Positions 4,031-25,528 of a stretch of DNA of 30,940 bases are shown here, one piece after another; position 1 is the stretch's first letter; every line of letters starts with the position of its first letter. Under the pieces are notes generated by a model that saw only the letters and a program-made list of their open reading frames with translations, was not told the DNA's origin and ran no database searches. The position numbers were made by a program, and so were the translations under genes. The stretch comes from a virus (Duplodnaviria; Heunggongvirae; Uroviricota; Caudoviricetes). The stretch lies in the IMG/VR virus record IMGVR_UViG_2684622670_000017. One strand, 5' to 3'.

Positions 4031-4302
4031 GTATTCGTATTGAAATTGGCGAACGTTATGTCGTTACCAGTGACAGCTTTCAGTTTATTCTCCACGAGAA
4101 AAAGAGAGCTGAAAGCGGTAAAAACGCCGGTCAGGAATGGCTGGCGGTGGTTGGTTATTACCCGAAATTAAGCCAGCTCGTTTCCGGCCTGATGCATCAC
4201 GATATTCTGACCGGAAGCGCAAAGTCTTTTGCTGATTTAAACGCGCAGGTTGAGCAACTCAGCAAGCGTTGTTCAGAGGCTTTTGGCTCATATGGCCGTT
4301 AA
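4027..4302 (+). CDS. Hypothetical early protein (P2 orf83-like by position)
   Basis: 91-aa ORF immediately upstream of and overlapping gene A. Confidence 0.5.
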   Translation: MSIRIEIGERYVVTSDSFQFILHEKKRAESGKNAGQEWLAVVGYYPKLSQLVSGLMHHDILTGSAKSFADLNAQVEQLSKRCSEAFGSYGR

Positions 4303-6601
4303 AGCCTCCGGGCGTTTTGTCCCTCCGTCAGCATTTGCTGCAGGCACCGGTAAGACGTTTACCGGTGCTTATGCATGGAACGCGCCACGCGAGGCTGTCG
4401 GGCGCGAAAGACCCCTTACACGTGACGAGATGCGTCAGGTGCAAGGTGTTTTATCCACGATTAACCGCCTGCCTTACTTTTTGCGCTCGCTGTTTACTTC
4501 ACGCTATGACTACATCCGGCGCAATAAAAGCCCGGTGCACGGGTTTTATTTCCTCACATCCACTTTTCAGCGTCGTTTATGGCCGCGCATTGAGCGCGTG
4601 AATCAGCGCCATGAAATGAACACCGACGCGTCGTTGCTGTTTCTGACAGAGCGTGACCACTATGCGCGTCTGCCGGGGATGAATGACAAGGAGCTGAAAA
4701 AGTTTGCCGCCCGTATCTCATCGCAGCTTTTCATGATGTATGGGGAACTCTGCGATGCCTGGGTGGATGCGCATGGCGAAAAAGAATCGCTGTTTACGGA
4801 TGAGGCGCAGGCGCATCTGTATGGTCATGTTGCTGGCGCTGCACGTGCTTTCAATATTTCCCCGCTTTACTGGAAAAAATACCGTAAAGGACAGATGACC
4901 ACGAGGCAGGCATATTCTGCCATTGCCCGTCTGTTTAACGATGAGTGGTGGACTCATCAGCTTAAAGGCCAGCGTATGCGCTGGCATGAGGCGTTATTGA
5001 TAGCTGTCGGGGAGGTCAATAAAGACCGTTCTCCTTATGCCAGTAAACATGCCATTCGTGATGTGCGTGCGCGCCGTCAGGCAAATCTGGAGTTTCTTAA
5101 ATCGTGTGACCTTGAAAACAGGGAAACCGGCGAACGCATCGACCTTATCAGTAAGGTGATGGGCAGTATTTCTAATCCTGAAATTCGCCGGATGGAGCTG
5201 ATGAACACCATTGCCGGTATTGAGCGTTACGCCGCCGCAGAGGGTGATGTGGGGATGTTTATCACGCTGACCGCGCCGTCAAAGTATCACCCGACACGTC
5301 AGGTCGGAAAAGGCGAAAGTAAAACCGTCCAGCTTAATCACGGCTGGAATGATGAGGCATTTAATCCGAAGGATGCGCAGCGTTATCTCTGCCGTATCTG
5401 GAGCCTGATGCGCACGGCATTCAAGGATAATGATTTACAGGTCTACGGTTTGCGAGTCGTCGAGCCACACCACGACGGAACGCCGCACTGGCATATGATG
5501 CTTTTTTGTAATCCACGCCAGCGTAACCAGATTATCGAAATCATGCGTCGCTACGCGCTCAAAGAGGATGGCGACGAAAGAGGAGCTGCGCGAAACCGTT
5601 TTCAGGCAAAACACCTTAACCGGGGCGGTGCTGCGGGATATATCGCGAAATACATTTCAAAAAACATCGACGGCTATGCACTGGATGGTCAGCTCGATAA
5701 CGATACCGGCAGGCAGCTGAAAGACACCGCCGCGGCTGTTACCGCATGGGCGTCAACGTGGCGCATCCCGCAATTTAAAACGGTTGGCCTGCCGACAATG
5801 GGGGCTTACCGTGAACTACGCAAATTGCCTCGCGGCGTCAGTATTGCTGATGAGTTTGACGAACGCGTCGAGGCTGCACGCGCTGCCGCAGACAGTGGTG
5901 ATTTTGCGTTGTATATCAGCGCGCAGGGTGGGGCAAATGTTCCGCGCGATTGTCAGACTGTCAGGGTTGCCCGTAGTCCGTCGGATGAAGTTAACGAGTA
6001 CGAGGAAGAAGTCGAGAGAGTGGTCGGCATTTACGCGCCGCATCTCGGCGCGCGTCATATTCATATCACCAGAACGACGGACTGGCGCATTGTTCCGAAA
6101 GTGCCGGTCGTTGAGCCTTTGACTTTAAAAAGCGGCATCGCCGCGCCTCGGAGTCCTGTCAATAACTGTGGAAAGCTCACCAGTGGTGATACTTCGTTAC
6201 CGGCTCCCACACCTTCTGAACACGCCGCAGCAGTGCTTAATCTGGTTGATGACGGTGTTATCGAATGGAATGACCCGGAGGTCGTGAGGGCGCTCAGGGG
6301 CGCATTAAAACACGACCTGATAACACCAAACCGTCAGCAAAGAAACGGAAGCCCGTTAAAACCGCATGAAATAGCACCATCGGCCAGACTGACCAGGTCG
6401 GAACGAATGCAAATTACCCGTATCCGCGTTGACCTTGCTCAGAACGGTATCAGGCCGCAGCGATGGGAGCTTGAGGCGCTGGCGCGTGGCGCGATCGTAA
6501 ATTATGACGGGAAACAATTTACGTATCCGGTTGCTGATGAGTGGCCGGGATTTTTACAAACAGAAATTGTTTTTGGGATTAATAAGTTATCTCTAAGCTA
6601 A
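4292..6601 (+). CDS. A: Rolling-circle replication initiator endonuclease (P2 gpA)
   Basis: Large ORF with HUH-type metal-binding motif (TPHWHMMLF) and paired active-site tyrosines (GYIAKYISKN). Start set at the internal MAVKASGRF Met in frame with ORF 4250..6601; size matches P2 A (about 760 aa). Confidence 0.9.
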   Translation: MAVKASGRFVPPSAFAAGTGKTFTGAYAWNAPREAVGRERPLTRDEMRQVQGVLSTINRLPYFLRSLFTSRYDYIRRNKSPVHGFYFLTSTFQRRLWPRIERVNQRHEMNTDASLLFLTERDHYARLPGMNDKELKKFAARISSQLFMMYGELCDAWVDAHGEKESLFTDEAQAHLYGHVAGAARAFNISPLYWKKYRKGQMTTRQAYSAIARLFNDEWWTHQLKGQRMRWHEALLIAVGEVNKDRSPYASKHAIRDVRARRQANLEFLKSCDLENRETGERIDLISKVMGSISNPEIRRMELMNTIAGIERYAAAEGDVGMFITLTAPSKYHPTRQVGKGESKTVQLNHGWNDEAFNPKDAQRYLCRIWSLMRTAFKDNDLQVYGLRVVEPHHDGTPHWHMMLFCNPRQRNQIIEIMRRYALKEDGDERGAARNRFQAKHLNRGGAAGYIAKYISKNIDGYALDGQLDNDTGRQLKDTAAAVTAWASTWRIPQFKTVGLPTMGAYRELRKLPRGVSIADEFDERVEAARAAADSGDFALYISAQGGANVPRDCQTVRVARSPSDEVNEYEEEVERVVGIYAPHLGARHIHITRTTDWRIVPKVPVVEPLTLKSGIAAPRSPVNNCGKLTSGDTSLPAPTPSEHAAAVLNLVDDGVIEWNDPEVVRALRGALKHDLITPNRQQRNGSPLKPHEIAPSARLTRSERMQITRIRVDLAQNGIRPQRWELEALARGAIVNYDGKQFTYPVADEWPGFLQTEIVFGINKLSLS

Positions 6602-6723
6602 GACGCTCAAAGCAAGAGATTATTTTACTGTACGTAGCCATCTGGAATTGTGGCTGTGTTAAAACGCTCGAGATTTTTTGGATATCCAGTTATACTCCGC
6701 TTAGAAATCATTCGGAGACTAAG
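6602..6723 (+). promoter_or_regulatory. Putative promoter / 5' leader of the methyltransferase gene
   Basis: AT-rich intergenic region with a TATACT -10-like hexamer and an inverted repeat CTCCG..(13 nt)..CGGAG overlapping the GGAG ribosome-binding site before the 6724 ATG. Confidence 0.3.
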
Positions 6724-7770
6724 ATGGCGGTAAAAGTTGTTGATCTTTTTTGCGGTGCTGGCGGTTTAACGCACGGCTTACATTTGGCCGGATTGGACGT
6801 TGTCGCAGGCATTGATTTAGAAGGTGAGTGTCGTGTTGCATACGAAAGCAATAATGATGCACTTTTTATTGAAAAAGATATATCTCTGGTGACAAAAGAT
6901 GAAATCGAAAATCTTTTTGAAGGGGCAAGTGTTAAAGTATTGGCTGGATGTGCACCTTGTCAGCCATTTTCTAAATATACTCAGGGAAAAGATAAAAAAA
7001 ATGATAAAAAGTGGCCGTTATTATATGAGTTTGAACGTTTAATAAAAGACACGAAACCAGAAATAGTTACAATGGAAAACGTTCCTGATGTGACAAAACA
7101 TTCTGTCTATGATGATTTTTATAATACCTTAATAGCATTGGGTTATTATGTTTGGGCAAATAAGATTGAATGTGTAGATTTTGAGGTTCCGCAAAACAGA
7201 GTGAGGCATGTATTACTCGCATCTAAATTTGCGCCGATTTCTCTGATGAAACCACAAACATCGGTAAAGCTGACAGTTAGGGATTGCATTGGTAATTTAC
7301 CTTCGATTGAAGCGGGACAAGCAGATCCAAAAGACCCTCTCCATAAGGCGAGTAGATTGAGTGAAATTAATCTCAAACGTATTCTACATTCAAAACCGGG
7401 GGGGACATGGAGGGATTGGCCTGCTGAATTAATCGCTTCATGTCATGCCAAGAAAAGTGGGCAGGGATATGCCAGTGTTTATGGTCGTATGTCTTGGGAT
7501 AAACCGAGTCCAACGATAACTACACTTTGTTATGGTTTTGGTAATGGACGTTTTGGTCATCCCGAGCAGCATCGTGCAATCTCACTTAGGGAAGCAGCAT
7601 TACTTCAAACGTTTCCTGTTACATATTCATTTACCCAACCGGGCGAGCCGATCAAAATGAAAAATGTCGGGCGTATGATAGGTAATGCTGTTCCTGTAAA
7701 CTTAGGTAAAGCGATTGGTCTTTCAATAGTACATCATTTGAAAGAGTTTCACCCCGCCGCTCTTAAATAA
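6724..7770 (+). CDS. DNA (cytosine-5)-methyltransferase
   Basis: 348 aa with the canonical C5-MTase motifs: I DLFCGAGG (AdoMet binding), IV GCAPCQPFS (catalytic Cys; nt about 6955..6963), VI TMENVPD, VIII QNRVRHVLL, and C-terminal IGNAVPV. AT-rich codon usage unlike the phage backbone. Confidence 0.92.
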   Translation: MAVKVVDLFCGAGGLTHGLHLAGLDVVAGIDLEGECRVAYESNNDALFIEKDISLVTKDEIENLFEGASVKVLAGCAPCQPFSKYTQGKDKKNDKKWPLLYEFERLIKDTKPEIVTMENVPDVTKHSVYDDFYNTLIALGYYVWANKIECVDFEVPQNRVRHVLLASKFAPISLMKPQTSVKLTVRDCIGNLPSIEAGQADPKDPLHKASRLSEINLKRILHSKPGGTWRDWPAELIASCHAKKSGQGYASVYGRMSWDKPSPTITTLCYGFGNGRFGHPEQHRAISLREAALLQTFPVTYSFTQPGEPIKMKNVGRMIGNAVPVNLGKAIGLSIVHHLKEFHPAALK

Positions 7771-8468
7771 GCCTGAGTATCAAGATAAGTTTGTATATTT
7801 TCAAGGATGCAGTTGAGATAATGAAAAACTTCATCCTTCATTTCTGTTAGTGTATCAATAGATGTATCTCTGCCTTTGTTTCTAAATGATTCAGAACCAT
7901 GAGCAAGGTCGTTTCTGGCCTTTTTTATTGGAAGTAAATTGCAACCATTTCGCGTTATTTCTGAATCTGTATCTGCTGAGAAGCCATATTTTTCAGCGAC
8001 TTCTCTAATTTTTCTAGCATCAACATTTCCAGAAAATAACGGATTTTTATTTGATTGGATAAGTTTTTTGTGAGCGTTTAGCCACTCTTTAAATATAACT
8101 TTTGCAATGTTCCCTTGTGAGAAATCTATTTTCCCATTTGGTGATTGTAAACTATGAAATGCTACTCTTGTAAGGTTTTCATTTACAGTGTCTGCACATA
8201 ATGATTCATTAGACATTAAAACATTATGAATGTCTTCTATTGCATTGGAAATGGTTGCTTCAATGAGATTGTACAATATAATAAATGCATTAGCCTTTAA
8301 AATATGAGTCATATCAATATCAATGGGTTGTTGTATAGGCGCATCGCTTGTATTATCTTTATAGACTAGAGATGGTTTTTTGTTTATTAGTAACTGAATG
8401 AATGAGAAGTATTCATTAATATCTTGCATTCTTTCTTGGAAAAGAATTTTACTTGTCATCTCCTCCAT
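7749..8468 (-). CDS. HEPN-like protein with Rx4HG motif (putative nuclease effector; resembles the MAE_28990/Swt1-like HEPN group)
   Basis: 239 aa. Conserved-looking ARNDLAHGSESF near the C-terminus (R185..H190, nt about 7899..7917) fits the HEPN Rx4-6H signature. Second gene of a minus-strand operon, 10 nt after the DUF262 gene; AT-rich. Confidence 0.6.
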   Translation of the reverse strand: MEEMTSKILFQERMQDINEYFSFIQLLINKKPSLVYKDNTSDAPIQQPIDIDMTHILKANAFIILYNLIEATISNAIEDIHNVLMSNESLCADTVNENLTRVAFHSLQSPNGKIDFSQGNIAKVIFKEWLNAHKKLIQSNKNPLFSGNVDARKIREVAEKYGFSADTDSEITRNGCNLLPIKKARNDLAHGSESFRNKGRDTSIDTLTEMKDEVFHYLNCILENIQTYLDTQAYLRAAG

Positions 8469-8478
8469 TTACTTGGCC

Positions 8479-9624
8479 TCACTCCATATTTTCATCTTCA
8501 TCTTCATCTTCGTCGACAATATTTTCTGGAATGTCTTTCCCAAGCAACTTGTTTTTTACATATTCAATGCGTGCTTTAACTTTGGGTTTAGAGTTGCTGG
8601 CATCTGAACGTGTGTGCGTGATAAACTCTTTCGAGTTGATCCAGTCATCAATATTTTTAGGAACTAAATTGGGTTCTTCCTCCAGTGCTAATGTTGCACC
8701 GACGGCAAGAGCTTCGAAACGAATCCTAGGAACAGTGGTGGCGTTTTTCACCTTTCTGAAACCATTTGGGAAATGTGTATTAATGAATTGGCACATTTTA
8801 TGAAATTTTTCCGCCAGCATAGCTGCGTTTTCATCTGTATATTCGGCATTTTTACGTTTTAAATAGGTTGTAAGAAATTCATCAACGCTTTTTCTGAAAT
8901 CAAGATATTCTTCAGTGTAGGCAAAGTAGCGTAGTGCCAATTCTGGATATTCAGAGCGACGTTTTCTTGCATCTCCCAAAGGACAGATGCTATGAAATAG
9001 AGGATCTTCGGAAATTTCATTGATAAATGCAAGGAATGGCCCATCATGGCTACCTTGCCGTTGTTCCATTGTTGTTAGTTTTTTTCCGCCAGTATTCAGA
9101 CGGTCAAAAATTTCCCTTCTTGTCTCTTCGTCACAATGTTCTGTAAGTTCAATCATTCGAATAGTTTTTCTATCAAAACGTAGGCGACGGGGAGTACTGA
9201 AATCAGAATATTTAAAACCATTGGCTGTGACTAATTTCTGCAGGCCTTCAAGAGTTAGTTTGTTATTGGTAAATTGGTGTAGGGTTCTTATTCGTTGGCT
9301 ACCGTCAACAATTTCAAGTCTACCTTCATTTTCACCTGAACCAATATCGGCAACGAATATGTAAGGTATAGGAAGATTTAAAAGCAGAGATTCAATGAAA
9401 CGGGATTTTTGCTTGTTGTTCCAGATAAACTCCCTTTGGTAGTCAGGTATAAAAAGCTCTGCCTCATCTTCTTCAAGACCATTCTGAAATTTGTCCACAA
9501 TAACACTTATCGGGAACTCACGTATTTCATGGTCAGTGATTTTTTGCATTTCAACTATGCTTTGATCTAAAAGCTCCTTTTCTTCTTTAGTTTTTGGGGT
9601 ATGTTCTGCTTTTTTTCTCGCCAT
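8479..9624 (-). CDS. DUF262 (ParB/Srx-like, GmrS-type) domain protein
   Basis: 381 aa. N-terminal DUF262 signatures FIPDYQREFIW and EIVDGSQRIRTL (DGQQR-type). No HNH/DUF1524 His-Me motif seen in the C-terminal half. Ends in an acidic tail DEDEDEDENME. Confidence 0.8.
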   Translation of the reverse strand: MARKKAEHTPKTKEEKELLDQSIVEMQKITDHEIREFPISVIVDKFQNGLEEDEAELFIPDYQREFIWNNKQKSRFIESLLLNLPIPYIFVADIGSGENEGRLEIVDGSQRIRTLHQFTNNKLTLEGLQKLVTANGFKYSDFSTPRRLRFDRKTIRMIELTEHCDEETRREIFDRLNTGGKKLTTMEQRQGSHDGPFLAFINEISEDPLFHSICPLGDARKRRSEYPELALRYFAYTEEYLDFRKSVDEFLTTYLKRKNAEYTDENAAMLAEKFHKMCQFINTHFPNGFRKVKNATTVPRIRFEALAVGATLALEEEPNLVPKNIDDWINSKEFITHTRSDASNSKPKVKARIEYVKNKLLGKDIPENIVDEDEDEDENME

Positions 9625-9763
9625 GAGCTTATTATCCTACTATGCGTGTGATTGCATTAAATTGCATGTTAAACAAAAGCATAATCTATATCAGTCAATC
9701 AGCCAGTGGCAAGGTGTTGTGATTACAATGCAACTGCATTAGAACCGACTCATGAAGCGGGCG

Positions 9764-9782
9764 GGCGAGGCGGGGAAAGCAC
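9764..9782. other. cos: cos site: 19-nt P2-type cohesive end
   Basis: Exact sequence GGCGAGGCGGGGAAAGCAC, which I recall as the P2 cohesive end; it lies just upstream of the portal/terminase genes, as expected. Confidence 0.8.
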
Positions 9783-9950
9783 TGCGCGCTGGCGGTGGTG
9801 CTGATTTTATTTTTTCAGCGTCTGAGCGCGTCGTGATGGCGTTTAGATTGTTCGCCGGGGCGTTGGTGTGTCTGCGGGATGTTTTGTGCGGTGGTGAGCG
9901 TGTGAGGGCGTGATGGCGGGTTGTAAAAAGCCGCCCGTAGGCGGCGATGT

Positions 9951-10985
9951 TCAGCCGTTGTCAGTGTCCAGTGAGTAGTTTTTAAAGCGGATGACCTCCT
10001 GACCGAGCCAGCCGTTTATCTCGCGGATCCTGTCCTGTAGCGGGATAAGCTCATTGCGGACAAAGACCTTTGCCACTTTCTCAATATCACCCAGCGACCC
10101 GACGTTCTCCGGCTTGCCGCCCATCAACTGAAAGGGGATGCGGTGCGCGTCCAGCAGGTCAGCGGCGCTGGCTTTTTTGATATTAAAAAAATCGTCCTTC
10201 GTTGCCACTTCACTGAGCGGGATAATTTTAATGCCGTCGGCTTTCCCCTGTGGGGCATAGAGAAACAGGTTTTTAAAGTTGTTGCGGCCTTTCGACTTGA
10301 CCATGTTTTCGCGGAGCATTTCGATATCGTTGCGATCCTGCACGGCATCAGTGACGTACATGATGTATCCGGCATGTGCGCCATTTTCGTAATACTTGCG
10401 GCGGAACAGCGTGGCCGACTCATTCAGCCAGGCAGAGTTAAGGGCGCTGAGATATTCCGGCAGGCCGTACAGCTCCTGATTAATATCCGGCTCCAGCAGG
10501 TGAAACACGGAGCCGGGCGCGAAGGCTGTCGGCTCGTTGAAGGACGGCACCCACCAGTAAACATCCTCCTCCACGCCACGACGGGTATATTTGGCCGGTG
10601 AGGTTTCCAGTCTGATGACCTTACCGGTGGTGCTGTAACGCTTTTCCAGAAACGCATTACCGAACACCAGAAAATCCAGCACAAAGCGGCTGAAATCCTG
10701 CTGGGAAAGCCACGGGTGCGGGATAAACGTTGAAGCCAGAATATTACGTTTGACGTAAATCGGTGAGCTGTGATGCACGGCAGCACGCAGACTTTTTGCC
10801 AGACCGGTAAAGCTGACCGGTGGCTCATACCATCTGCCGTTACTGATGCACTCGACGTAATCCAGAATGTCACGGCGGTCGAGTACCGGCACCGGCTCAC
10901 CAAAGGTGAATGCCTCCATTTTCGGGGCGCTGGCGGTCATTTTTTTTGCCGCAGGTTGCGGTGTTTTCCCTTTTTTCTTGCTCAT
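9951..10985 (-). CDS. Q: Portal protein (P2 gpQ)
   Basis: 344 aa (same as P2 Q), adjacent to cos and the large terminase, minus strand as in P2. Confidence 0.92.
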   Translation of the reverse strand: MSKKKGKTPQPAAKKMTASAPKMEAFTFGEPVPVLDRRDILDYVECISNGRWYEPPVSFTGLAKSLRAAVHHSSPIYVKRNILASTFIPHPWLSQQDFSRFVLDFLVFGNAFLEKRYSTTGKVIRLETSPAKYTRRGVEEDVYWWVPSFNEPTAFAPGSVFHLLEPDINQELYGLPEYLSALNSAWLNESATLFRRKYYENGAHAGYIMYVTDAVQDRNDIEMLRENMVKSKGRNNFKNLFLYAPQGKADGIKIIPLSEVATKDDFFNIKKASAADLLDAHRIPFQLMGGKPENVGSLGDIEKVAKVFVRNELIPLQDRIREINGWLGQEVIRFKNYSLDTDNG

Positions 10986-23630: not shown

Positions 23631-24208
23631 TGACTTTCAGAATGAGTGCAGAGGCACAAACTATTCGCGTATTCAATTTACTGGATGGAAGCAATGAATT
23701 TATTGGCGAAAGCGATGCATATATTCCACCGTATACAGGTCTTCCTGCAAACAGTACAGACATTGCACCTCCAGATATTCCGGCTGGCTATGCTGCCGTT
23801 TTCAATGCAGACGAAATGAAATGGGAACTGATGGAAGACCATCGCGGAAAGACTGTCTATGAAACAAAAACAGGAGCAGCCATTTATATTTCTGAACTTG
23901 GCTCATTACCATCTGATGTAACAACAATTTCCCCGACCGGCAACTATCAGAAATGGAACGGGAATGTGTGGGTGGACGATGAGAGCGCAGAGCGTGATGC
24001 GCTTGTCAGGGAGGCTGAGTCTCAGAAGAAAGAGCAGACCGCATATGCAGGCGAAATTATTGCCACTTTGCAGGATGCAGTCGATTTAGATATGGCTACC
24101 GAAGAAGAAAAATTAAGTCTGACAAAATGGAAAAAATACCGGGTATTACTTAACCGCGTTCAGCCGGAAGATGCTCCGAATATAGAATGGCCGGAACTAC
24201 CGCAATAA
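23630..24208 (+). CDS. G: Tail fiber assembly chaperone G
   Basis: 192 aa; start overlaps the H stop; position matches P2 G. Confidence 0.82.
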
Positions 24209-24213
24209 ACACA

Positions 24214-24240
24214 GGCGGGCTGAATGCCTGCCTTTTCTTT
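24214..24240 (+). terminator. Putative rho-independent terminator after G
   Basis: GGCGGGC-TGAAT-GCCTGCC stem-loop (7-bp stem with one G-U pair) followed by TTTTCTTT, 6 nt after the G stop codon. Confidence 0.5.
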
Positions 24241-24337
24241 ATCTGTTGTTTCATCCACTGACCAGTCAGGTCAAATAGCGTCTTATGCCCTGCACAACTG
24301 AAAATACCACTCACCCATTAACCACGGAGTTAAACGG

Positions 24338-25528
24338 ATGAGTGACTATCATCACGGCGTGCAGGTGCTGGAGATTAACGACGGCACCCGCGTCATTTCC
24401 ACCGTATCCACTGCCATTGTCGGCATGGTCTGCACGGCCAGCGATGCGGATGCGGAAACCTTCCCCCTCAATAAACCGGTGCTGATTACCAATGTGCAGA
24501 GCGCAATTGCGAAGGCCGGTAAAAAAGGCACGCTGGCGGCATCGTTACAGGCCATCGCCGACCAGTCAAAACCGGTCACCGTTGTCGTGCGTGTGGAAGA
24601 CGGCACCGGCGAAGACGAAGAAACGAAACTCGCGCAGACCGTTTCCAATATCATTGGCACCACCGACGAAAACGGTCAGTACACCGGACTGAAAGCCCTG
24701 CTGGCGGCGGAGTCGGTAACCGGTGTTAAACCGCGTATTCTCGGTGTGCCGGGACTGGACACCAAAGAGGTGGCTGTTGCACTGGCATCAGTCTGTCAGA
24801 AGCTGCGCGCTTTCGGGTATATCAGCGCATGGGGCTGTAAAACCATTTCCGAGGTGAAAGCTTACCGCCAGAATTTCAGCCAGCGTGAGCTGATGGTCAT
24901 CTGGCCGGATTTCCTCGCATGGGATACGGTCACCAGTACCACCGCCACCGCGTATGCCACCGCCCGTGCGCTGGGTCTGCGTGCCAAAATCGACCAGGAG
25001 CAGGGCTGGCATAAAACGCTGTCCAACGTCGGGGTGAACGGTGTTACCGGCATCAGCGCATCTGTATTCTGGGATTTGCAGGAGTCCGGCACCGATGCTG
25101 ACCTGCTTAACGAGTCAGGCGTCACTACGCTGATTCGCCGCGACGGTTTCCGATTCTGGGGTAACCGTACCTGCTCTGATGACCCGCTGTTCCTCTTTGA
25201 AAACTACACCCGCACCGCTCAGGTGCTGGCCGACACGATGGCTGAGGCGCACATGTGGGCGGTGGATAAGCCCATCACCGCAACGCTGATTCGCGACATC
25301 GTTGACGGCATCAATGCCAAATTCCGCGAGCTGAAAACAAACGGCTATATCGTGGATGGCTCATGCTGGTTCAGCGAAGAATCCAACGATGCGGAAACCC
25401 TCAAGGCCGGAAAACTGTATATCGACTACGACTATACACCGGCGCCTCCTCTCGAAAACCTGACCCTGCGCCAGCGTATTACCGATAAATACCTGGCGAA
25501 TCTGGTCACCTCGGTTAACAGCAATTAA
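24338..25528 (+). CDS. FI: Tail sheath protein FI
   Basis: 396 aa, same size and order as P2 FI. Confidence 0.92.
   Translation: MSDYHHGVQVLEINDGTRVISTVSTAIVGMVCTASDADAETFPLNKPVLITNVQSAIAKAGKKGTLAASLQAIADQSKPVTVVVRVEDGTGEDEETKLAQTVSNIIGTTDENGQYTGLKALLAAESVTGVKPRILGVPGLDTKEVAVALASVCQKLRAFGYISAWGCKTISEVKAYRQNFSQRELMVIWPDFLAWDTVTSTTATAYATARALGLRAKIDQEQGWHKTLSNVGVNGVTGISASVFWDLQESGTDADLLNESGVTTLIRRDGFRFWGNRTCSDDPLFLFENYTRTAQVLADTMAEAHMWAVDKPITATLIRDIVDGINAKFRELKTNGYIVDGSCWFSEESNDAETLKAGKLYIDYDYTPAPPLENLTLRQRITDKYLANLVTSVNSN

What the first reader, a model, noticed from the sequence alone, without database searches (positions are those of the whole stretch)
6602..9763. Three-gene AT-rich cassette in the P2 gene A / cos hotspot: C5-methyltransferase + DUF262 protein + HEPN-like protein, a candidate undescribed defence system
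Seen in sequence: three well-formed ORFs (a C5-MTase on the plus strand, and DUF262 then an Rx4HG-motif protein as a minus-strand operon) fill the whole interval between the replication gene A stop and cos. Their composition is visibly more AT-rich than the flanking phage genes. Established knowledge: in P2-like phages this interval is a variable cargo locus, which in P2 itself holds the exclusion genes old and tin. DUF262 is the NTP-binding ParB-like module of GmrSD/SspE-type restriction enzymes, and HEPN Rx4-6H domains are usually RNases or nuclease effectors of abortive-infection and toxin systems. Inference: the DUF262 and HEPN-like pair is a two-component anti-phage effector in which a HEPN nuclease substitutes for the usual DUF1524/HNH partner, with the adjacent methyltransferase acting either as the cognate self-protecting modification enzyme or as an independent anti-restriction function.
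Basis: partly seen in the sequence, partly recalled or inferred. Interest (0 to 1): 0.85.

Follow-up and report, generated by a model that had tools for sequence, protein, structure and literature searches.

The report
Methylase-linked DUF262–HEPN phage-defence cassette
A P2-like prophage carries, in its usual defence-gene slot, a real and widely conserved three-gene module (a cytosine methylase, a ParB-like DNA-sensing NTPase and a HEPN RNase) that has already been catalogued as an "RM-like system" and is related to tested defences, so it is an untested member of a known kind and not a new system.

Summary

The methylase belongs to the module. The same trio recurs in four divergent E. coli P2-hotspot variants, a P4-satellite hotspot, plasmids, Vibrio, Thalassotalea, Moraxella prophages, cyanobacteria and Bacteroidota, in two gene orders. 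It is present in 45 of 46 informative viral contigs. Methylase-less pairs cluster mainly in one cyanobacterial group.

It is not undescribed. [quoted passage not shown] Rousset 2022 lists this exact Pfam trio in the P2 hotspot as an "RM-like system". Vassallo 2022 validated the related PD-T4-2 (DUF262+HEPN) and PD-λ-5 (ParB/HEPN + methylase). No held paper tests the three-gene form.

Most likely mechanism (inferred): an R-M-like system in which 5mC marks self DNA, the ParB-like NTPase reads DNA, and the HEPN RNase executes.

The parts
6724..7770 (+). C5 cytosine DNA methyltransferase (348 aa), the modification component
   Evidence: PF00145 1.8e-54 and TIGR00675 2.9e-36. All catalytic motifs are present: DLFCGAGGL, APCQPFS, MENVP, PQNRVR, GNAVPV. 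GGAGA lies 6 nt before the ATG. It is 55-81% identical to the MTases of all other trios.
7749..8468 (-). HEPN protein of the MAE_28990 family (239 aa, or 236 aa from the ATG at 8459), the predicted RNase effector
8479..9624 (-). DUF262 (ParB-like NTPase) protein with a C-terminal helical domain (381 aa), the predicted DNA sensor/switch
7749..7770 (.). 22-bp overlap of the convergent 3' ends of the MTase and HEPN genes
   Evidence: Coordinates, sequence. The same tight tail-to-tail packing is seen in L001 (4-bp overlap), Moraxella L009 (4 bp), Vibrio L002 (8-bp gap) and 29 genome loci.
9625..9763 (-). Non-coding leader of the DUF262-HEPN operon, with a promoter-like site at 9712-9683
   Evidence: TTGCCA-18-TAGATT on the minus strand. 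The scan as a whole is not above chance (9 sites found, 10.6 expected), so this is only a candidate.
6602..6723 (+). Intergenic region between gene A and the MTase, with a promoter-like site at 6668-6696 and a Shine-Dalgarno sequence
   Evidence: TCGAGA-17-TATACT (not above chance). Sequence.
9764..9782 (.). P2 cos cohesive-end sequence (right boundary of the cargo slot, not part of the module)
   Evidence: GGCGAGGCGGGGAAAGCAC read. The identification as the P2 cohesive end is from my own knowledge. The P24B2 phage record ends at window 9763.
4250..6601 (+). Replication gene A (left boundary, context only)
   Evidence: PF05840 7e-124.
9951..10985 (-). Portal gene Q (context only)
   Evidence: PF04860 3.3e-14. 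Annotated as portal protein in homologous prophages.

Best explanation
The cassette is a three-component, restriction-modification-like anti-phage module carried as prophage cargo. Shown: it encodes an intact C5-MTase, an intact ParB/DUF262 NTPase-type protein that has a helical DNA-binding-type domain and no nuclease domain, and an intact HEPN protein. The three genes are inherited together across phyla. Inferred mechanism: (1) the MTase puts 5-methylcytosine at its target sites on the host chromosome and on the prophage's own DNA. (2) The DUF262 protein, like the DUF262 modules of SspE, BrxU and GmrSD, uses its NTPase cycle to read the modification state of DNA. (3) When it meets incoming DNA that lacks the mark, it releases or activates its operon partner, the HEPN dimer. 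(4) HEPN cleaves RNA (tRNA or mRNA), stopping translation and aborting the infection. The 'restriction' arm would therefore be a DNA sensor plus an RNase, not a DNase. For the prophage, the module excludes competing phages, including P2 relatives that lack this methylase.
For: Domains and catalytic motifs are intact and the folds are confirmed. The DUF262 protein has no nuclease domain, so HEPN is the only candidate effector. DUF262 sits directly upstream of HEPN in all 78 informative species genomes. The MTase is coupled to the pair: the same subfamily (50-81% aa identity) is adjacent in E. coli P2 variants L001/L092/L093, P4 satellite L095, Klebsiella plasmid L098, Polaromonas pPNAP06, V. 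cholerae, Thalassotalea and Moraxella prophages. It is adjacent in 34 of 80 species genomes (29 convergent, 5 as a co-directional M-D-H operon) and in 45 of 46 informative IMG/VR loci. Methylase-less loci fall almost entirely into one block of cyanobacterial genomes (31 of 33 in the UPGMA order); outside it 37 of 39 carry the MTase. The same MTase subfamily is paired in the same P2 hotspot with a BbrUII/HgiDII-family Type II REase (L096) and with paraMORC3 (L094). This means restriction-type partners are swapped on a constant methylase, as expected if the MTase is the self-marking arm. Literature: DUF262 acts as a modification-sensing NTPase in SspE, GmrSD and BrxU (PMC10952713, PMC12065111). 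PD-T4-2 (DUF262+HEPN) and PD-λ-5 (ParB/HEPN + MTase, 'compacted RM+Abi') protect E. coli from phage (PMC9519451).
Against: Nothing here measures activity, so the direction of epigenetic reading, the RNA target and the DUF262-HEPN interaction are all inferred. PD-T4-2 and several natural pairs (one cyanobacterial group, IncF plasmids L097, Klebsiella phage L011) work or persist without an adjacent MTase. The sensor therefore need not depend on this methylase. Known DUF262 enzymes recognise modified DNA, not unmodified DNA. The MTase specificity is unknown, and GTCGAC, the site suggested by the HgiDII relative, is neither avoided nor enriched in the phage (6 sites against 7.0 expected). UPGMA clustering is not a phylogeny.
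Confidence: 0.4

Rival explanations
1. Modification-licensed (Ssp-like) system. The DUF262 protein reads the 5mC mark that its own MTase places on host DNA. That contact drives its NTPase and licenses the effector against unmarked invaders, as PT-modified DNA does for SspE. The methylase is then required for defence but not for self-protection.
Against: Sequence data cannot separate this reading from the R-M-like one. Methylase-less pairs exist. The same MTase subfamily serves a classical Type II REase (L096), where its role is protective.
Confidence: 0.17
2. RM+Abi two-layer system. The ParB-like DUF262 protein is itself the DNase that restricts unmethylated DNA, and HEPN is a second-line suicidal RNase released when restriction fails. 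This is the reading of Anantharaman 2013, and the one Vassallo 2022 gave for PD-λ-5.
For: Anantharaman 2013 calls the partner a 'ParB nuclease' and proposes PrrC-like back-up RNases next to R-M systems. Vassallo 2022 calls PD-λ-5 a 'compacted RM+Abi'. Some ParB-fold proteins are annotated as nucleases (5k5d, 6ryk).
Against: In BrxU, GmrSD and SspE the nuclease activity lies in DUF1524 and not in DUF262. No nuclease fold or motif was found in the 381-aa protein.
Confidence: 0.13
3. Two independent cargos. The MTase is an orphan or anti-restriction phage methylase read through from the early operon, and DUF262+HEPN is a self-contained PD-T4-2-like or Type IV-like defence that senses phage-modified cytosines.
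For: The MTase is on the gene A strand, 122 bp downstream. PD-T4-2 works without an MTase and acts on T4. Rousset 2022 labelled a Vibrio DUF262+HEPN_MAE_28990 set 'Type-IV restriction'. An identical MTase allele (WP_001697730) is listed with other partner proteins in Table S5B.
Against: The adjacency persists outside P2 in unrelated contexts and in a second gene order. It holds in 45 of 46 viral loci. A Type IV-like cytosine-modification sensor sitting next to a 5mC writer would risk attacking its own host.
Confidence: 0.1
4. Addiction module. It acts mainly as a post-segregational killing or stabilisation system for the prophage, satellite or plasmid, like many Type II R-M systems, and phage defence is secondary.
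For: It is found on prophages, P4 satellites and plasmids. Convergent M/R-like packing is typical of selfish R-M units.
Against: This is not exclusive of defence. It sits in hotspots where tested cargo is mostly anti-phage (PMC9122126, PMC9519451). A chromosomal cyanobacterial group keeps the pair without the MTase.
Confidence: 0.08

Closest known systems
'RM-like system' no. 2 of the P2 gpA-gpQ hotspot (Rousset et al. 2022, Tables S5A/S5B)
   Same: [quoted passage not shown] The listed proteins WP_000351260/WP_001697730/WP_000373633 are those of locus L092.
   Different: The window's proteins are a divergent allele set: MTase 73%, DUF262 45% and HEPN 30% identical to the listed set. Rousset's group also lumps in D12-methylase and other partner variants. 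It does not appear among the tested systems in Table S2, which has no DUF262 entry.
MAE_28990 HEPN operon (Anantharaman et al. 2013, Table 1)
   Same: [quoted passage not shown] The Rx4-6H motif is conserved.
   Different: That work was purely computational. It assumed the ParB partner is a DNase and gave no phage-hotspot context.
PD-T4-2 (Vassallo et al. 2022)
   Same: It is a two-gene DUF262 + HEPN system whose HEPN matches PF18735/PF18737 by HHpred. It is a validated anti-T4 defence in E. coli. The window's DUF262 matches the PADLOC PD-T4-2_A model over nearly its full length, E 9e-35.
   Different: PD-T4-2 has no methylase and a shorter HEPN (about 165 aa against 239). The window's HEPN matches no PADLOC model. 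The DUF262 protein scores higher on NsnA than on PD-T4-2_A.
PD-λ-5 (Vassallo et al. 2022)
   Same: It combines a ParB-fold protein carrying HEPN-like regions with a DNA methylase in a prophage. It is validated, gives broad protection, and was interpreted as a compact RM+Abi system.
   Different: ParB and HEPN are fused in one protein, of the ParBc type and not DUF262. Its methylase is the N6-adenine D12 class, not C5. No PADLOC PD-λ-5 match was found here.
GmrSD / BrxU / SspE (DUF262 + DUF1524 enzymes)
   Different: The window protein has no DUF1524 His-Me nuclease. Its effector is a separate HEPN protein, and it is linked to a 5mC writer.
Menshen (NsnABC)
   Same: The window's DUF262 protein is the best match to the PADLOC NsnA model (4.9e-55), with the same ParB-DUF262 plus helical domain layout.
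   Different: There is no NsnB ABC ATPase and no NsnC effector. The partners here are HEPN and an MTase.
PrrC-EcoprrI
   Same: It is a HEPN RNase genetically and functionally tied to an R-M system.
   Different: PrrC is an ABC-ATPase-HEPN fusion embedded in a Type Ic hsdMSR operon. A DNase restriction arm is present there.

Membership tests
C5 DNA methyltransferase (PF00145) | Profile match above the gathering score, plus the catalytic motifs I (FxGxG), IV (PCQ), VI (ENV), VIII (QxRxR) and X (GNxVP) | tested here: met
   185.8 bits against a cut-off of 22. The motifs are read in the alignments.
DUF262 / GmrSD_N (PF03235) | Profile match above the gathering score and a DGxQR nucleotide-binding motif | tested here: met
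GmrSD/BrxU/SspE Type IV-like enzymes | A C-terminal DUF1524 His-Me (HNH-type) nuclease domain in the same protein or in a partner | tested here: not met
HEPN, MAE_28990/MAE_18760 family (PF18737) | Profile match above the gathering score, the Rx4-6H motif, and a HEPN helical fold | tested here: met
HEPN, MAE_28990 operon (Anantharaman 2013) | A gene neighbourhood with a ParB-fold gene and a DNA methylase gene | tested here: met
   Met in the window and in related loci.
Rousset 2022 P2-hotspot 'RM-like system' | [quoted passage not shown] | tested here: met
PD-T4-2 | Component A (DUF262) matches the PD-T4-2_A model | tested here: met
   PADLOC PDLC04027 9.2e-35, model positions 55-357 of 363. 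The score (118 bits) is lower than for NsnA (185 bits).
PD-T4-2 | Component B (short HEPN) matches a PD-T4-2_B model | tested here: not met
   The window's HEPN and seven related HEPNs gave no match to any PD-T4-2_B or other defence-system HEPN model in PADLOC; the only hit at all was a weak CARF_HEPN match (0.0015) for the Vibrio protein. I could not obtain the PD-T4-2B sequence to compare directly, nor confirm that PADLOC holds a PD-T4-2_B model.
PD-T4-2 | Protection against T4 by the two genes alone | not testable with these tools
   Needs cloning and plaque assays.
Menshen (NsnABC) | NsnA together with an NsnB ABC ATPase and an NsnC effector | tested here: not met
   Only the NsnA-like protein is present. 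The cassette holds no ATPase or NsnC gene.
PD-λ-5 | A ParBc-HEPN fusion protein plus a D12-class N6-adenine MTase | tested here: not met
   The proteins are separate and the MTase is C5 class. No PD-λ-5 model appears among the PADLOC hits.
Type II restriction-modification | An MTase plus a DNA endonuclease with the same sequence specificity | tested here: inconclusive
   The MTase is present and is 55-58% identical to the MTase of a BbrUII/HgiDII-type R-M unit in the same hotspot. No endonuclease fold was found. A weak PADLOC REase_II match (8.7e-7) covers only the DUF262 region.

The most novel reading that the evidence does not exclude
This is a true restriction-modification system whose restriction arm does not cut DNA. 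A ParB-type NTPase reads whether DNA carries the cognate 5-methylcytosine mark and gates a HEPN RNase, so that epigenetic self/non-self discrimination is coupled directly to RNA cleavage. The same methylase scaffold would then be re-used in the P2 hotspot with interchangeable executors (Type II REase, paraMORC, DUF262+HEPN).
Probability: 0.35. Interest if true: 0.65.

Novelty: new member of a known kind. Interest (0 to 1): 0.35.

Why it matters
If the inferred logic is right, this widespread module would show that the methylation-based self/non-self test of R-M systems can drive an RNase instead of a DNase. The HEPN family has about 1,270 representative clusters at 50% identity with E<=1e-10. 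The module occurs in prophages, satellites and plasmids of enterobacteria, Vibrio and Moraxella, and in many cyanobacteria. It would also link R-M, Type IV/DUF262 sensors and abortive infection in a single three-gene unit. The apparent swapping of executors on one methylase in the P2 hotspot would be a compact example of modular evolution in defence systems. In practice the window adds only another allele of a catalogued cassette. The value lies in prompting the missing experiment, not in a discovery.

Tried and rejected
- PADLOC scans of the HEPN protein and seven related HEPNs gave no defence-system match. The module would therefore not be called by PADLOC-DB 2.0, although it appears in the literature tables.
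- NCBIfam has no model for the DUF262 or HEPN proteins.
- PDB sequence searches for DUF262 and HEPN found nothing. Only the fold search worked.
- I looked for genuine PD-T4-2 sequences among phage DUF262 hits. Loci L010 and L011 are other DUF262 pairs and not PD-T4-2, scoring 49-118 bits on PD-T4-2_A. A direct comparison with PD-T4-2 was not possible.
- The promoter/terminator scan gave sites no more frequent than in shuffles, so I treat them only as candidates.
- Rfam found no RNA family in 6300-10100 at E<=1, so no RNA antitoxin or regulator is evident.
- MTase specificity could not be assigned. PDB relatives align only in the catalytic core. GTCGAC, suggested by the HgiDII-family neighbour, occurs at chance frequency.
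- I considered that the MTase conservation might merely reflect the general conservation of C5-MTases. I rejected this as the whole explanation because the alignment has no internal gaps and is 49-73% identical even in the variable region, residues 176-250. The subfamily is, however, not exclusive to the trio.
- Blastn with the DUF262 gene found only 7 E. coli genomes. The MTase gene was the better probe for divergent variants.
Full report
**1. Observation**

The window is a P2-like prophage. It is 99.8% identical to Peduovirus P24B2 and 99.8-99.9% identical to three complete E. coli genomes.

Between replication gene A (PF05840, stop at 6601) and the P2 cohesive-end sequence GGCGAGGCGGGGAAAGCAC (9764-9782) lie exactly three ORFs:
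- a C5-MTase, 6724-7770 (+)
- a HEPN protein, 7749-8468 (-)
- a DUF262 protein, 8479-9624 (-)

DUF262 and HEPN are 10 nt apart on the same strand. RefSeq's 236-aa HEPN start at 8459 follows a GGAGGAG sequence. The MTase and HEPN genes converge and overlap by 22 bp. GC is 0.30-0.39 across the cassette against 0.52-0.60 in the flanks.

**2. The proteins**

All three Pfam matches are above their gathering scores: PF00145 at 1.8e-54, PF03235 (GmrSD_N/DUF262) at 4.7e-28, and PF18737 (HEPN_MAE_28990) at 6.5e-18, with PF18735 at 6.8e-7.

The MTase has every catalytic motif.

This is a DUF262 sensor-type protein without its usual nuclease, encoded next to a HEPN protein.

**3. Is the methylase part of the system?**

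The same tail-to-tail architecture (DUF262 then HEPN, with a convergent C5-MTase) occurs in many settings:
- the V. cholerae chromosome, between housekeeping genes
- Thalassotalea
- nine Moraxella catarrhalis prophages
- a linear Klebsiella plasmid
- Polaromonas plasmid pPNAP06, where the MTase is missing from the gene table but found by tblastn
- three further divergent variants in the E. coli P2 hotspot (L001, L092, L093)
- the int-psu hotspot of a P4-like satellite (L095)

Between these variants the MTase is 55-81% identical, DUF262 is 34-69% and HEPN only 23-61%. The methylase is thus the most conserved partner and the RNase the fastest-evolving.

A scan of one genome per species found 179 HEPN relatives, of which 80 loci were kept. 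In these:
- DUF262 is directly upstream in all 78 informative loci.
- The MTase of this subfamily is adjacent in 34. It is convergent in 29 and forms a co-directional M-D-H operon in 5 (Bacteroidota, Lentisphaerae and Planctomycetes).
- It is absent in 37 loci with full flanks.

The methylase-less loci are not scattered. In a UPGMA ordering of the DUF262 sequences, 31 of 33 form one contiguous block of cyanobacteria, and outside that block 37 of 39 loci carry the MTase. UPGMA is only a proxy for a tree.

In IMG/VR, 45 of 46 informative viral loci carry the MTase.

Two gene orders, many genomic contexts and near-universal adjacency in mobile elements argue that the methylase is a functional component and not independent cargo.

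**4. Modularity**

The same MTase subfamily is 55-58% identical to the trio MTases. The alignment has no internal gaps and includes the variable region where target-recognition domains lie.

In the very same P2 hotspot this subfamily is paired with a BbrUII/HgiDII-family Type II restriction enzyme (L096). It is also paired there with a paraMORC3 GHKL ATPase in phage PhiR44_1 (L094).

This looks like restriction-type executors being exchanged on a constant self-marking methylase, which is the pattern expected for R-M logic. It also shows that the subfamily is not exclusive to the trio. The MTase target remains unknown. GTCGAC, the HgiDII site recalled from my own knowledge, occurs at chance frequency in the window.

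**5. What is already known**

The claim that the system is undescribed fails.
- Anantharaman et al. [quoted passage not shown] They propose PrrC-like RNases coupled to R-M systems.
Their table of tested systems has no DUF262 entry.
- Vassallo et al. 2022 (PMC9519451) validated PD-T4-2. It is DUF262 + HEPN from ECOR65, its HEPN matches PF18735/PF18737 by HHpred, and deleting it in the native strain restores T4 plaquing.
- RefSeq already names the window's proteins.

Some gaps remain. The only held paper containing 'MAE_28990' is the 2013 one. No held paper reports a test or a mechanism for the three-gene C5-MTase form. PADLOC-DB 2.0 would not call it, because the HEPN matches no model and the DUF262 protein matches NsnA better than PD-T4-2_A.

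**6. Mechanism**

Shown: three intact enzymes or switch proteins, no DNase domain, tight operon coupling of DUF262 and HEPN, and co-inheritance with the MTase.

Inferred, as the best explanation (0.4): the MTase marks self DNA. The DUF262 NTPase reads the modification state of DNA, as the DUF262 modules of SspE, GmrSD and BrxU do. Unmarked incoming DNA leads it to unleash the HEPN RNase, which arrests translation.

Rivals:
- An Ssp-like licensing role for the mark (0.17).
- The 2013 'ParB DNase plus back-up RNase' reading (0.13). This is weakened because DUF262 is an NTPase sensor and not the nuclease in the solved relatives.
- Independent cargos (0.10). This is weakened by the co-inheritance data.
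- An addiction module (0.08), which is not exclusive of defence.

The persistence of methylase-less pairs (PD-T4-2, IncF plasmids L097, the cyanobacterial group) is the main caution. The sensor can evidently work, or be retuned to work, without this methylase.

**7. Verdict**

The domain calls and the idea of a cognate MTase are right. The novelty claim is wrong.

This is a new allele or member of a known, catalogued but experimentally untested kind. Interest is moderate to low (0.35). The most novel reading that the evidence still allows is an R-M system whose restriction arm is a DNA-sensing NTPase gating an RNase (probability about 0.35).

Noticed in passing
L005 4916-6693; also L014-L016, L019-L026, L031-L034 and other genome loci: The methylase-less DUF262+HEPN pairs form essentially one cyanobacterial group. 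In Microcoleus and in Nostocales-type genomes they sit just downstream of a gene of about 870 aa (ClpB in L005), in conserved synteny. They look like a vertically inherited chromosomal resident and not a mobile defence island.
   Followed up: partly
L094 5004-8052 (phage PhiR44_1); L096 4361-7403: In the same P2 gpA-gpQ hotspot, an MTase of the same subfamily (55-58% aa) is paired with a paraMORC3 GHKL ATPase in one locus. In another it is paired with a BbrUII/HgiDII-family Type II restriction enzyme. Different executors appear to be swapped on one methylase.
   Followed up: partly
L095 4992-7852: A very divergent copy of the trio (HEPN 23%, DUF262 36% and MTase 57% identical to the window) occupies the int-psu hotspot of a P4-like satellite next to ssrA. 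The module is therefore shared between the helper-phage and satellite hotspots.
   Followed up: partly
window 8459-8468: The HEPN start codon is ambiguous. The ATG at 8468 gives 239 aa. The ATG at 8459 gives 236 aa, is the RefSeq choice, and lies just downstream of GGAGGAG. With the shorter form, residue numbers such as R185/H190 shift by 3.
   Followed up: yes
window 7990-8040 (HEPN residues 145-163): An invariant FSGNVDA block (followed by R or K) and a YGF block lie in an insertion of about 70 residues between HEPN helices, where the model confidence is lower. No function is known for them. They could be a partner-binding or ligand-binding surface.
   Followed up: no
window 8479-8735 (DUF262 residues 298-381): The C-terminal helical domain carries invariant or near-invariant VPRIRFE and HTRSDASNS(R/K)PKV motifs but has no nuclease fold. 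Enterobacterial versions end in a disordered acidic tail (EDEDEDEDENME) that Vibrio, Pseudomonas and Shewanella homologues lack.
   Followed up: no
window 24208-24338: The second known P2 cargo hotspot (Z/fun, between tail-fibre assembly gene G and sheath gene FI) is empty in this prophage, with only about 130 bp between the two genes. The GC dips at 22.5-24 kb correspond to the tail-fibre genes.
   Followed up: yes
L011 3426-5329 (Klebsiella phage ST16-OXA48phi5.4); L097 2915-4615 (E. coli IncF plasmids): Other DUF262 + HEPN pairs (RiboL-PSP type, or a 211-aa MAE_28990 type) occur without any adjacent methylase. One lies between tail genes of a P2-family phage. The other is on conjugative IncF plasmids next to an IS66 element.
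   Followed up: partly
L099 4692-5735 (Polaromonas pPNAP06, record positions about 64-1107): A full-length C5-MTase (about 50% identical to the trio MTases) lies convergent to the HEPN gene but is absent from the plasmid collection's gene table. This is an annotation gap that would hide the trio.
   Followed up: yes
L140 and L141 (IMG/VR): Two viral loci carry DUF262+HEPN relatives with an upstream co-directional C5-MTase that is only 31% identical to the usual subfamily. This suggests the methylase arm can be replaced as well.
   Followed up: no
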